NCBI GenBank assembly: GCA_964602255.1
Contig: CAZRQS010000021.1
Span: 1 to 23,062, forward strand
Origin: an uncultured bacterium
Lineage (GTDB): Bacteria > Vulcanimicrobiota > Vulcanimicrobiia > Vulcanimicrobiales > Vulcanimicrobiaceae
Direction of reading: 5' to 3'
Length of the DNA: 23,062 bases
The position numbers were made by a program, and so were the translations under genes. Each line of letters begins with the position of its first letter. Positions within the stretch are counted from its first letter, which is position 1. The notes beneath the pieces are model-generated. The model saw only the letters and a list, made by a program, of their open reading frames with translations. It had not been told where the DNA came from and ran no database searches. Positions 18,351 through 18,391 of the stretch are shown piece after piece.

Positions 18351-18391
18351 TTGACATATCATAATGTCTTGATATAATGCAGTCAATGGCA
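18351..18391. promoter_or_regulatory. Divergent overlapping sigma70-like promoters with nested dyad operators (merA <-> arsR-family regulator/merT)
   Basis: + strand: TTGACA (18351-18356), 16 bp, TATAAT (18373-18378). - strand: TTGACT (complement of 18381-18386), 17 bp, TATGAT (complement of 18358-18363). Nested inverted repeats: GACAT-N6-ATGTC (18353-18368) and ATATCA-N8-TGATAT (18356-18375). Confidence 0.55.

What the first reader, a model, noticed from the sequence alone, without database searches (positions are those of the whole stretch)
18351..18391. Near-consensus, back-to-back divergent promoters sharing a palindromic core; both transcripts apparently leaderless
A 36-bp segment TTGACATATCATAATGTCTTGATATAATGCAGTCAA carries a + strand TTGACA-16-TATAAT (perfect hexamers) and a - strand TTGACT-17-TATGAT. 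The two -35 boxes form the outer arms of a palindrome. Nested dyads GACAT-N6-ATGTC and ATATCA-N8-TGATAT lie in the spacers and -10 regions. The ArsR-family gene's ATG (18386) and merA's ATG (18350) each lie ~7 nt after their -10 box, so both mRNAs would be leaderless. Their lack of SD sequences fits this. A single repressor dimer bound at the dyads would occlude both promoters. This is a compact bidirectional metal-responsive switch built on ArsR rather than the MerR DNA-distortion mechanism.
Basis: seen in the sequence. Interest (0 to 1): 0.55.

Follow-up and report, generated by a model that had tools for sequence, protein, structure and literature searches.

The report
Two-way mercury-resistance promoter switch, leaderless genes
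A 35-bp gap between a mercury reductase gene and an ArsR-type regulator gene holds two fully overlapping, opposite-facing promoters and one repressor site, so both genes probably start translation at the very first bases of their mRNAs; this is a compact new example of a known type of mercury switch, not a new mechanism.

Summary
Window 18351-18386 carries a + strand TTGACA-16-TATAAT (12/12, with an extended -10 TG) and a - strand TTGACT-17-TATGAT (10/12). Each -10 lies 7 nt before an ATG: arsR at 18386 and merA at 18350.

Comparison with about 33 related loci, mostly Eremiobacterota MAGs, supports the interpretation.
- The arsR promoter and a 20-bp palindrome (ATATCA-N8-TGATAT; family consensus ATATCAGG-N4-CCTGATAT) are conserved. 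The arsR start codon always lies 6-10 nt after the -10, with no SD.
- The - strand promoter TTGACx-17/18-TATGAT is conserved in 12 of 13 loci that have a divergent gene.
- That gene's ATG lies either 6-8 nt after the -10 with no SD (window subgroup), or 27-36 nt after it with an AAGGAG/GGAGG SD.
- The 35-bp core is 86-94% identical between relatives, against 65-74% for the flanking coding DNA.

GACAT-N6-ATGTC is not, and the "outer palindrome" is simply the two -35 boxes.

ArsR-type repressors that control divergent merA and merR-merT operons are already known (Streptomyces lividans; M. marinum pMM23 has the same gene layout). I therefore call this a new, very compact member of a known kind. 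Start sites, repressor binding and Hg(II) response are all inferred, not shown.

Side finding: the gene after merT encodes a probable UxxC selenoprotein.

The parts
18351..18356 (+). -35 hexamer TTGACA of the arsR-merT promoter. It directly abuts the merA start codon (CAT at 18348-18350).
   Evidence: 12/12 match. TTGAYA-like hexamer conserved at this position in related loci.
18370..18378 (+). Extended -10 element TGaTATAAT of the arsR-merT promoter. The hexamer is 18373-18378.
   Evidence: The -10 (TATAAT/TATGAT/TATATT) is conserved and always overlaps the right operator half-site.
18356..18375 (.). Probable ArsR operator: 20-bp imperfect palindrome ATATCA-TAATGTCT-TGATAT. It covers the spacer and first half of the -10 of the + promoter, and the whole -10 plus part of the spacer of the - promoter.
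   Evidence: Unique in the window. Family consensus ATATCAgatTATCcTGATAT in 21 Eremiobacterota loci; perfect 9-2-9 in L095 and 8-0-8 in L016. ATATYA-N8-TRATAT-like sites scoring at least 10/12 lie upstream of arsR in 35 of 80 genome loci across several phyla.
18381..18386 (-). -35 hexamer TTGACT of the merA promoter. Its first T is the complement of the A of the arsR ATG.
   Evidence: TTGAC is present here in 13/15 loci with a confirmed divergent gene, and absent from 19 loci without one.
18358..18363 (-). -10 hexamer TATGAT of the merA promoter, 7 nt before the merA ATG.
   Evidence: TATGAT, TATAAT or TACAAT at the same position relative to the operator in 11/13 loci, with a weaker TGTGAT in L092.
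18386..18745 (+). arsR-family regulator gene (119 aa) with a CmtR-like Cys triad: C66 and C70 in the recognition helix, C112 in the C-terminal tail. Probably leaderless.
   Evidence: PF01022 62 bits and NF033788 80 bits, above cut-offs. Invariant Cys. Best PDB match is CmtR 2jsc. The identical 119-aa protein P0001 is called from this ATG.
16974..18350 (-). merA, mercuric reductase core enzyme (458 aa) without an NmerA domain. It has the CVNIGC redox pair and a C-terminal CC. Probably leaderless.
   Evidence: TIGR02053 537 bits against a cut-off of 454. Start supported by L081, L001, L086 and L175.
18755..19129 (+). merT-like mercury transporter gene, 9 nt after the arsR stop. Second gene of the + operon.
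   Evidence: PF02411 34.7 bits against a cut-off of 32.9. The arsR-merT pair is conserved in about 20 Eremiobacterota loci.
19134..19706 (+). Third gene of the + operon: a 190-codon protein with an in-frame TGA (19308-19310) at the first position of a CxxC-type motif (SPT-U-GMC). A conserved hairpin follows (19320-19338).
   Evidence: TGA in 22 of 25 homologues and Cys in 3. Nucleotide-invariant hairpin only in the TGA forms.
15690..16892 (-). ArsP_1/SO_0444-like permease with an inserted CxxC-x19-C-x3-H segment, 81 nt downstream of merA. It may be co-transcribed with merA, but it is not conserved in relatives.
   Evidence: PF03773 192 bits. L081 and L175 have other genes after merA.

Best explanation
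The 35 bp between merA and arsR is a complete two-way regulatory module.

Layout:
- Two sigma-70-type promoters lie back to back on opposite strands and occupy the same DNA.
- Each -35 box touches the start codon of the opposite gene.
- One 20-bp palindromic operator (18356-18375) sits in the middle.

Proposed mechanism:
1. Without mercury, a dimer of the ArsR-family protein binds the operator.
2. The operator overlaps the spacer and -10 of the arsR-merT promoter and the -10 of the merA promoter, so RNA polymerase is excluded from both.
3. Hg(II) binds the three conserved cysteines: two in the DNA-recognition helix and one in the C-terminal tail of the partner subunit, as in CmtR. This lowers DNA affinity and both promoters open.
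4. The two polymerase footprints coincide, so only one orientation can be loaded at a time. The stronger + promoter (12/12) should win more often than the - promoter (10/12).
5. Both transcripts begin at, or 1 nt before, their AUG and are translated as leaderless mRNAs.

Shown here: the sequence elements, their rarity, their conservation and their geometry across relatives.
Inferred: transcription start sites, binding of this protein to this site, Hg(II) as inducer, promoter competition, and the leaderless translation mode.
For: Elements and rarity:
- Promoter matches of 12/12 and 10/12.
- Each pattern is unique in the window and essentially absent from shuffles.

Conservation:
- The operator and the + promoter are conserved in about 33 loci. 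The arsR start lies 6-10 nt after the -10 and there is no SD.
- Bacillota and deltaproteobacterial relatives keep a similar palindrome but have GGAGG leaders.
- The - promoter is conserved in 12/13 loci. The distance to the start codon is bimodal and tracks the absence or presence of an SD.
- merA N-termini differ in sequence and length (MIGNGNFDL, MNQDIEYDL, MIVRDTNYDL, MNLNTHSVDF, MSLNAHSVDF), yet the ATG stays 0-1 nt from the arsR -35.
- The core is 86-94% identical against 65-74% for flanking coding DNA.
- The - strand TTGAC is present only where there is a divergent gene. A crude ORF-based Fisher test gives p = 0.011.

Proteins:
- ArsR/SmtB membership, invariant Cys triad and CmtR as closest structure.
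- MerA passes the equivalog cut-off.
- arsR homologues sit next to merT or merA in about 50/80 genome loci.

Precedent:
- ArsR-type regulators repress mer operons in S. lividans and S. solfataricus (PMC3466566).
- S. lividans has divergent merAB and merRTP operons (PMC5312570).

Lineage context:
- With arsR and merA excluded, TANNNT hexamers are enriched 6-7 nt before candidate starts in 149 kb of Eremiobacterota DNA (19 against about 9 expected). An SD peak is also present.
Against: - No transcript 5' ends and no binding data exist.
- L094 (merA 61% identical) has TTGACA-18-TATGAT, but its only in-frame start (ATGATG) overlaps that -10. That locus needs another arrangement, for example the operator half-site TATCAT as -10 with the ATG 6 nt after it. 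This geometry also fits L010 and L018.
- The window keeps a similar alternative: TATCAA-N6-ATG at 18362, in frame.
- L095 has only a weak - strand match (8/12).
- Homologues at about 49% identity sit next to a cation (CDF-type) transporter in a Deinococcus plasmid. Metal specificity therefore rests on gene context alone.
- The five loci with a leaderless merA are close relatives (merA 70-71% identical to the window where the full gene is held), so they are few independent events.
Confidence: 0.68

Rival explanations
1. Only the arsR-merT promoter and its operator are functional. Under this rival, the - strand 'promoter' is a by-product of an AT-rich palindromic operator. merA is then transcribed and translated differently: either from the operator half-site acting as -10 (TATCAA-N6-ATG 18362, product MICQMIGNG...), or from a start inside arsR.
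For: - The geometry TATCAT-N6-ATG, with the ATG inside the operator, is the only workable one in L094. It also fits L010 and L018.
- The window, L001, L086 and L175 keep the in-frame upstream ATG.
- A 10/12 match alone is not rare: four matches of at least 10/12 occur in 10 kb.
Against: - TATCAA lacks the conserved final T and has no -35.
- L081 has lost that ATG and its reading frame, yet keeps TTGATT-17-TATAAT-8-ATG.
- The same TTGACA-17/18-TATGAT is kept in L016, L176, L177 and L178, where merA has a 27-36 nt SD-containing leader.
- The - strand TTGAC occurs only where a divergent gene exists.
- No other promoter-like site lies inside the 5' part of arsR.
Confidence: 0.15
2. The architecture is as described, but the regulator is not a mercury sensor. 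It would respond to Cd/Pb (like CmtR) or to another thiol-reactive signal, and merA and merT would simply be part of a broader regulon.
For: - The best characterised relative is the Cd/Pb sensor CmtR.
- A homologue at 49% identity is paired with a cation transporter in a Deinococcus plasmid.
Against: - The CmtR equivalog score is 73.5 bits against a cut-off of 150.
- Linkage to merT or merA is tight and cross-phylum, in about 50/80 loci.
- Homologues with the same Cys pattern flank merA in M. marinum pMM23 and Streptomyces pFRL4.
- The operator occurs only once in the window, between mer genes.
Confidence: 0.12
3. A chance AT-rich stretch that happens to resemble promoters and dyads, with no regulatory meaning.
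For: The individual dyad arms are short (5-6 nt). One of them (GACAT-N6-ATGTC) is indeed not conserved.
Against: - A 12/12 promoter appears in 0/100 shuffles.
- Conservation extends across about 33 loci, and the core is more conserved than the flanking coding DNA.
Confidence: 0.02

Closest known systems
Streptomyces lividans 1326 mer locus (ArsR/SmtB-type 'MerR'; Brunker et al. 1996, Rother et al. 1999)
   Same: - An ArsR-family repressor, not a MerR-family activator, controls mercury resistance.
- Two divergently transcribed operons, merA(B) on one side and regulator-merT(P) on the other, are controlled from the shared intergenic region (PMC5312570, PMC3466566, PMC11672702).
- A Streptomyces plasmid homologue (pFRL4, L173) shares the C-x3-C recognition-helix motif and the C-terminal Cys.
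   Different: - Identity is only about 39% to the Streptomyces pFRL4 homologue.
- The Streptomyces intergenic region is about 116 bp as annotated and carries two CTATGCG-N6-CGAATAG-like repeats. Here there is one operator in 35 bp.
- The operator sequence differs, and the phylum differs (Eremiobacterota relatives).
- From my own memory, not checked here: two operators were footprinted in S. lividans.
Mycobacterium marinum plasmid pMM23 mer locus (merA-merH-merB <-> ArsR-MerT)
   Same: Same gene order and orientation, with merA divergent from arsR-merT. The regulator is 49% identical with the same Cys triad.
   Different: The annotated gap is 138 bp. The palindrome differs (TATCCG-N6-CGGATA). 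arsR has a GGGAG SD-like leader, so it is not a 35-bp leaderless pair.
CmtR (M. tuberculosis Rv1994c, PDB 2jsc), Cd/Pb-sensing ArsR/SmtB repressor
   Same: Closest solved structure (E = 2.8e-16). Cys57 and Cys61 of the recognition helix align with C66 and C70, and a C-terminal Cys is also present (PMC11672702 section 3.2.2.2).
   Different: It scores below the CmtR equivalog cut-off (73.5 against 150 bits). Its gene neighbours are mer genes rather than a Cd/Pb P-type ATPase.
Tn21/Tn501 MerR-controlled divergent merR / merTPAD promoters
   Same: Overlapping divergent promoters with a single dyad operator, giving Hg(II)-dependent control of both the regulator and the structural genes (general knowledge; PMC9909328 for the MerR mechanism).
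   Different: - MerR is an activator that works by DNA distortion at a promoter with a suboptimal 19-20 bp spacer.
- Here the spacers are the optimal 16 and 17 bp, and the regulator is a winged-helix ArsR repressor expected to act by occlusion and dissociation.
- The genes here are leaderless.
Sulfolobus solfataricus MerR (ArsR-like) controlling merHAI
   Same: An ArsR-like repressor of merA (PMC3466566, citing Schelert et al. 2006).
   Different: That system has an archaeal TATA/BRE promoter and a different protein subfamily. I did not compare the sequences here.

Membership tests
ArsR/SmtB metalloregulator family | Winged helix-turn-helix HTH_5 domain scoring above the curated cut-offs | tested here: met
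   PF01022 62.4 bits (cut-off 22). NF033788 80.1 bits (cut-off 55)..
ArsR/SmtB metalloregulator family | Conserved metal-ligand residues at a recognised sensing site | tested here: met
   C66, C70 and C112 are invariant in 35 homologues. C66 and C70 align with CmtR Cys57 and Cys61. Actual metal binding was not tested.
ArsR/SmtB metalloregulator family | Imperfect inverted-repeat operator overlapping the promoter of its own operon | tested here: met
   ATATCA-N8-TGATAT overlaps the spacer and -10. It is conserved upstream of arsR in about 33 close loci and in 35/80 genome loci.
ArsR/SmtB metalloregulator family | Metal-induced dissociation from DNA (derepression) | not testable with these tools
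   Needs EMSA or footprinting with and without Hg(II).
CmtR (Cd/Pb sensor) equivalog | Score at or above the NCBIfam NF047906 cut-off | tested here: not met
   73.5 bits against a cut-off of 150.
MerR-family Hg(II) activator system | MerR-type regulator and a target promoter with a 19-20 bp spacer containing the dyad | tested here: not met
   The adjacent regulator is ArsR-type. The spacers are 16 and 17 bp.
Mercuric reductase MerA | TIGR02053 equivalog score; redox-active CxxxxC; C-terminal Cys pair | tested here: met
   537.2 bits against a cut-off of 454.45. GGTCVNIGC and a C-terminal ...SCCAT are visible in the translation. No NmerA (HMA) domain.
Sigma-70-type promoter | -35 and -10 hexamers with a 16-18 bp spacer | tested here: met
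   12/12 with an extended -10 on the + strand and 10/12 on the - strand. Conserved in relatives. Promoter activity was not tested.
Leaderless mRNA | -10 element 6-8 nt upstream of an AUG start, with no room for and no occurrence of an SD | tested here: met
   7 nt on both sides, both starts are ATG, and there is no SD motif.
Leaderless mRNA | Transcript 5' end at, or within about 1-3 nt of, the start codon | not testable with these tools
   Needs 5' RACE, dRNA-seq or metatranscriptome 5'-end mapping.
S. lividans-type mer locus (ArsR-type MerR with divergent merA and merR-merT operons) | Gene organisation merA <-> regulator-merT | tested here: met
   merA (-) 16974-18350, arsR (+) 18386-18745, merT (+) 18755-19129. 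Organisation in S. lividans is taken from PMC5312570.
S. lividans-type mer locus (ArsR-type MerR with divergent merA and merR-merT operons) | Orthology of the regulator to S. lividans MerR | tested here: inconclusive
Streptomyces pFRL4 and M. marinum pMM23 merA-adjacent ArsR proteins are 39% and 49% identical, with the same Cys motif.

The most novel reading that the evidence does not exclude
The 35-bp module could be a minimal, mutually exclusive two-way promoter. One ArsR dimer would gate both directions, and RNA polymerase could load in only one orientation at a time, so relative promoter strength would fix the ratio of transporter/regulator to reductase expression. The window's subgroup would have converted merA from an SD-led gene to a leaderless gene by deleting its 5' UTR. 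The switch would also control a previously unrecognised UxxC selenoprotein, pointing to a selenium-dependent step in mercury handling in Eremiobacterota.
Probability: 0.3. Interest if true: 0.5.

Novelty: new member of a known kind. Interest (0 to 1): 0.3.

Why it matters
- It gives a clean, testable operator/promoter model for mercury regulation in a largely uncultured phylum (Eremiobacterota/Vulcanimicrobiota).
- It defines an operator (ATATCA-N8-TGATAT family) for a widespread, uncharacterised branch of ArsR-type mer regulators.
- The relatives form a natural series in which the same promoter drives merA with or without a 5' leader. This is useful for studying how leaderless genes arise.
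- It exposes a practical annotation problem. Public gene calls on this contig start merA 33 codons too late, which cuts off the FAD-binding motif. They also start arsR inside its own -10.
- The 35-bp module could serve as a very small Hg-responsive bidirectional part for biosensors.

Tried and rejected
1. GACAT-N6-ATGTC as a second binding site. Rejected: it is kept only in the window, L001 and L081, and lost in L086, L175 and all others.
2. The 'outer palindrome' TTGAC...GTCAA as part of the operator. Rejected: GTCAA is absent from 19 loci that keep the operator but lack a close divergent gene, so it behaves as a -35 box.
3. arsR start at ATG 18377, which is NCBI's 122-aa call P0241. Rejected: it lies inside the -10 hexamer, and relatives place the start 6-10 nt after the -10.
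4. merA start at Met34, the public 425-aa call P0121. Rejected: it removes the GxGxxA FAD motif.
5. merA start at ATG 18362. Disfavoured by L081; kept as a rival.
6. A second + strand promoter, TTGCCG-17-TATCAT at 18334-18362 (9/12). Rejected: its -35 is not conserved in L001.
7. Rfam scan of the whole window found nothing.
8. The repeat finder missed the short dyads.
9. An ORF-based classification of 'divergent gene present' is noisy in this high-GC DNA, so the Fisher test is only indicative.
10. Literature search for 'ArsR + merA + leaderless' returned nothing relevant. The primary S. lividans papers are not in the searchable library.
11. Divergent flavoprotein genes in L010 and L018 are truncated or frameshifted and could not be used to test the model.

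Full report
**1. Observation**

Window 18351-18386 reads TTGACATATCATAATGTCTTGATATAATGCAGTCAA. It is 28% G+C in a window of about 57% G+C.

- The consensus scan finds a + strand TTGACA-16-TATAAT (12/12, preceded by TGn, so an extended -10) at 18351-18378. It also finds a - strand TTGACT-17-TATGAT (10/12) at 18386-18358.
- The exact + pattern occurs once in the window and in 0 of 100 shuffles. TTGAC-N17-19-TATGAT occurs once and in 1 of 100 shuffles.
They are not one nested palindrome. The repeat finder did not list them because the arms are short.
- Each -10 lies exactly 7 nt before an ATG, and no SD-like tetramer precedes either ATG.

**2. The flanking genes**

- The - strand ORF from ATG 18350 is a 458-aa MerA. 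It scores 537 bits on TIGR02053 (cut-off 454), has the CVNIGC redox pair and a C-terminal CC, and has no NmerA domain.
- The + strand ORF from ATG 18386 is a 119-aa ArsR/SmtB protein (PF01022, NF033788).
- It is followed 9 nt later by a MerT-like gene (PF02411).
- In 35 homologues, three Cys are invariant: C66 and C70 in L-A-C-L-K-W-C-G, plus C112.
- The closest solved structure is the Cd/Pb sensor CmtR (2jsc), whose Cys57 and Cys61 align with C66 and C70. The CmtR equivalog cut-off is not reached (73.5 against 150 bits).

**3. Relatives**

- The nearest ArsR and MerA homologues come from Eremiobacterota/Vulcanimicrobiota MAGs (Baltobacteraceae, Cybelea). More distant ones come from Alicyclobacillus and other Bacillota, Methylomirabilota, Chloroflexota and deltaproteobacterial MAGs.
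- Of 80 genome loci, about 50 have merT or merA within 3 kb of the arsR homologue.
- In Eremiobacterota the usual unit is arsR-merT. In Bacillota, arsR lies upstream of and co-directional with merA.

**4. The arsR side**

- Upstream of arsR in 21 Eremiobacterota loci the consensus is ttTGAt-ATATCAgatTATCcTGATAT-aAT. This is a -35 box, a 20-bp palindrome (ATATCAGG-N4-CCTGATAT), and a -10 that begins inside the right half-site.
- A second group has ATCAT...ATGAT variants: L095 is a perfect 9-2-9 and L016 a perfect 8-0-8.
- The window's ATATCA-N8-TGATAT is a weaker version of this site, and it is the only such site in the window.
- In all of these loci the start codon lies 6-10 nt after the -10 with no SD.
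- Bacillota and deltaproteobacterial relatives keep an ATATYA-N8-TRATAT-like palindrome but add a GGAGG leader.
- A leaderless arsR is therefore a lineage-wide feature and not an accident of this window.

**5. The merA side**

Thirteen loci with a confirmed divergent gene were compared. Twelve keep TTGACx-17/18-TATGAT (or TATAAT, TACAAT, or the weaker TGTGAT in L092) on the - strand, at the same position relative to the operator. Only L095 has a weak match (8/12).

| Loci | Distance from -10 to start codon | SD |
|---|---|---|
| window, L001, L086, L175 | 7 nt | none |
| L081 | 8 nt | none |
| L054 (a different divergent gene) | 6 nt | none |
| L176, L177, L178, L016, L092, L095 | 27-36 nt | AAGGAG, GGAGG or AAGGGA, 4-8 nt before the ATG |
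| L094 | ATG overlaps the -10 | see below |

- This bimodality is what one expects if transcription starts about 7 nt after that -10 in all of them.
- On that reading, the window's subgroup has lost the 5' UTR.
- Within the subgroup the MerA N-termini differ in sequence and length, yet the ATG stays 0-1 nt from the arsR -35.
- In L081 a C>T change and a 1-nt insertion destroy the alternative upstream in-frame ATG (window 18362, 'MICQ...'). That alternative is therefore not required.
- Exception: L094 has TTGACA-18-TATGAT, but its only in-frame start (ATGATG) overlaps the -10. A different geometry fits L094, L010 and L018: the operator half-site TATCAT as -10, then 6 nt, then ATG. I leave this unexplained and keep it as the basis of the main rival.

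**6. Evidence for constraint**

- Between the window and L001, L081 and L086, the 35-bp core is 33/35, 31/35 and 30/35 identical.
- Over the same comparisons, the adjoining merA and arsR coding DNA is 65-74% identical.
- Substitutions cluster between the -10 and the ATG, and in the operator's central spacer.
- The - strand TTGAC (GTCAA just before the arsR ATG) is present in 13/15 loci with a confirmed divergent gene. It is present in none of 19 loci without one.
- A crude ORF-only classification gives Fisher p = 0.011. These loci are phylogenetically related, so the counts overstate independence.

**7. Lineage context**

- I took 149 kb of Eremiobacterota DNA and excluded arsR and merA. TANNNT hexamers are enriched 6-7 nt before candidate start codons (19 against about 9 expected). 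SD tetramers also peak at 5-8 nt. Leaderless and SD-led genes apparently coexist.
- Public gene calls on this very contig start merA at Met34 (425 aa, losing the GxGxxA motif) and arsR at ATG 18377 inside its -10 (122 aa). These are typical caller errors at leaderless genes.

**8. Mechanism (inferred)**

- An apo-ArsR dimer on 18356-18375 would cover the spacer and half of the -10 of the + promoter. It would also cover the whole -10 of the - promoter, blocking both.
- Hg(II) bound by C66, C70 and C112' would release it, by analogy with CmtR-type sites (PMC11672702).
- The two promoters occupy the same 36 bp, so polymerase can load in only one direction at a time.
- Both mRNAs would start at, or 1 nt before, their AUG.

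**9. Comparison with known systems**

- ArsR-type regulators of mer operons are established. They were found in 22 of 272 mer operons, and they act as repressors in S. lividans and S. solfataricus (PMC3466566).
- S. lividans has divergent merAB and merRTP operons (PMC5312570, PMC11672702).
- M. marinum pMM23 has merA-merH-merB <-> ArsR-MerT, with a 138-bp gap and its own palindrome. Streptomyces pFRL4 has merA <-> ArsR with two repeats in about 116 bp. Both regulators share the Cys pattern, at 49% and 39% identity.
That contrast, however, is not new.

**10. Verdict**

This is a real, conserved and unusually compact ArsR-operated bidirectional mer promoter with two probably leaderless genes. 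It is a new member of a known kind and of moderate-to-low interest (0.3). All functional steps await experiment.

**11. Side findings**

- The gene after merT (19134-19706) has an in-frame TGA at the first Cys position of an SPT-C-GFC motif.
- 22 of 25 homologues have TGA there and 3 have Cys.
- A hairpin (CUUCGGGGGUCUCUCGAAG, with a GGUC-type loop) starts about 10 nt after the TGA. It is nucleotide-invariant, including at synonymous sites, in the 20 aligned TGA forms, and is lost in the Cys forms shown (L005, L086).
- The protein has no Pfam or NCBIfam match and the hairpin has no Rfam match.
- This looks like an unannotated UxxC selenoprotein family in the arsR-merT operon.

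Noticed in passing
window 19134-19706 (+), TGA at 19308-19310, hairpin 19320-19338; homologues in L001-L019, L023, L054, L087-L091: The third gene of the arsR-merT operon is split by an in-frame TGA at the first position of a CxxC-like motif (SPT-U-GxC). 22 of 25 homologues have TGA there and 3 have Cys. A hairpin (CUUCGGGGGUCUCUCGAAG) about 10 nt downstream is nucleotide-invariant in the 20 aligned TGA forms and absent from the Cys forms shown (L005, L086). 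This is probably an unannotated selenoprotein with a SECIS element. It has no Pfam, NCBIfam or Rfam match.
   Followed up: partly
window 16974-18350 (-) and 18377/18386 (+): Public gene calls on this same 23,062-nt contig start merA 33 codons downstream (P0121, 425 aa), which removes the GxGxxA FAD-binding motif. They start arsR at ATG 18377 inside the -10 hexamer (P0241, 122 aa). These are likely annotation errors caused by leaderless starts.
   Followed up: yes
L094 1498-1503 and its arsR-merA gap; also L010 and L018: In these loci the divergent reductase or flavoprotein gene can only start at an ATG inside the operator ('M(M/N)CQ...'). That ATG lies 6 nt after the operator half-site TATCAT and overlaps the TATGAT that serves as -10 elsewhere. 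This is a different and unexplained promoter/start geometry. The L010 and L018 genes are truncated or frameshifted.
   Followed up: partly
window 15690-16892 (-): The ArsP_1/SO_0444-like permease downstream of merA carries an inserted segment, CPICGMEGQRDLAVEYRGQTYLACGRKH (CxxC-x19-C-x3-H), that looks like a TRASH/YHS-type metal-binding module. This gene is not conserved after merA in L081 or L175.
   Followed up: no
window 18740-18757; 13520; 11869; 22656-22699: Several other genes in the window have a TANNNT-like hexamer 6-8 nt before their ATG and no SD. Examples are merT (TAGGAT-6-ATG), 13520 (TACCCT-6-ATG) and 11869 (GATAAT-8-ATG). A TTGACA-17-TATGCT promoter ends 14 nt before ATG 22656. 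Gene 21902 has a clear AAGGAG. This suggests mixed leaderless and SD usage in this genome.
   Followed up: partly
L054 2914 (-) and L054 arsR gap: In a MAG labelled 'uncultured proteobacterium', the same back-to-back design (TTGACT-18-TACAAT-6-ATG) drives a different divergent gene. That gene encodes a 110-aa thioredoxin-like protein with CPN and SCC motifs, instead of merA.
   Followed up: partly
L016 about 60-110 (-): In L016 the - strand promoter would produce a leaderless 14-codon upstream ORF (ATGATCTGTCAAGCA...). Its stop overlaps the ATG of the SD-led flavoprotein gene (ATGA overlap). This may be translational coupling, or it may be chance.
   Followed up: no
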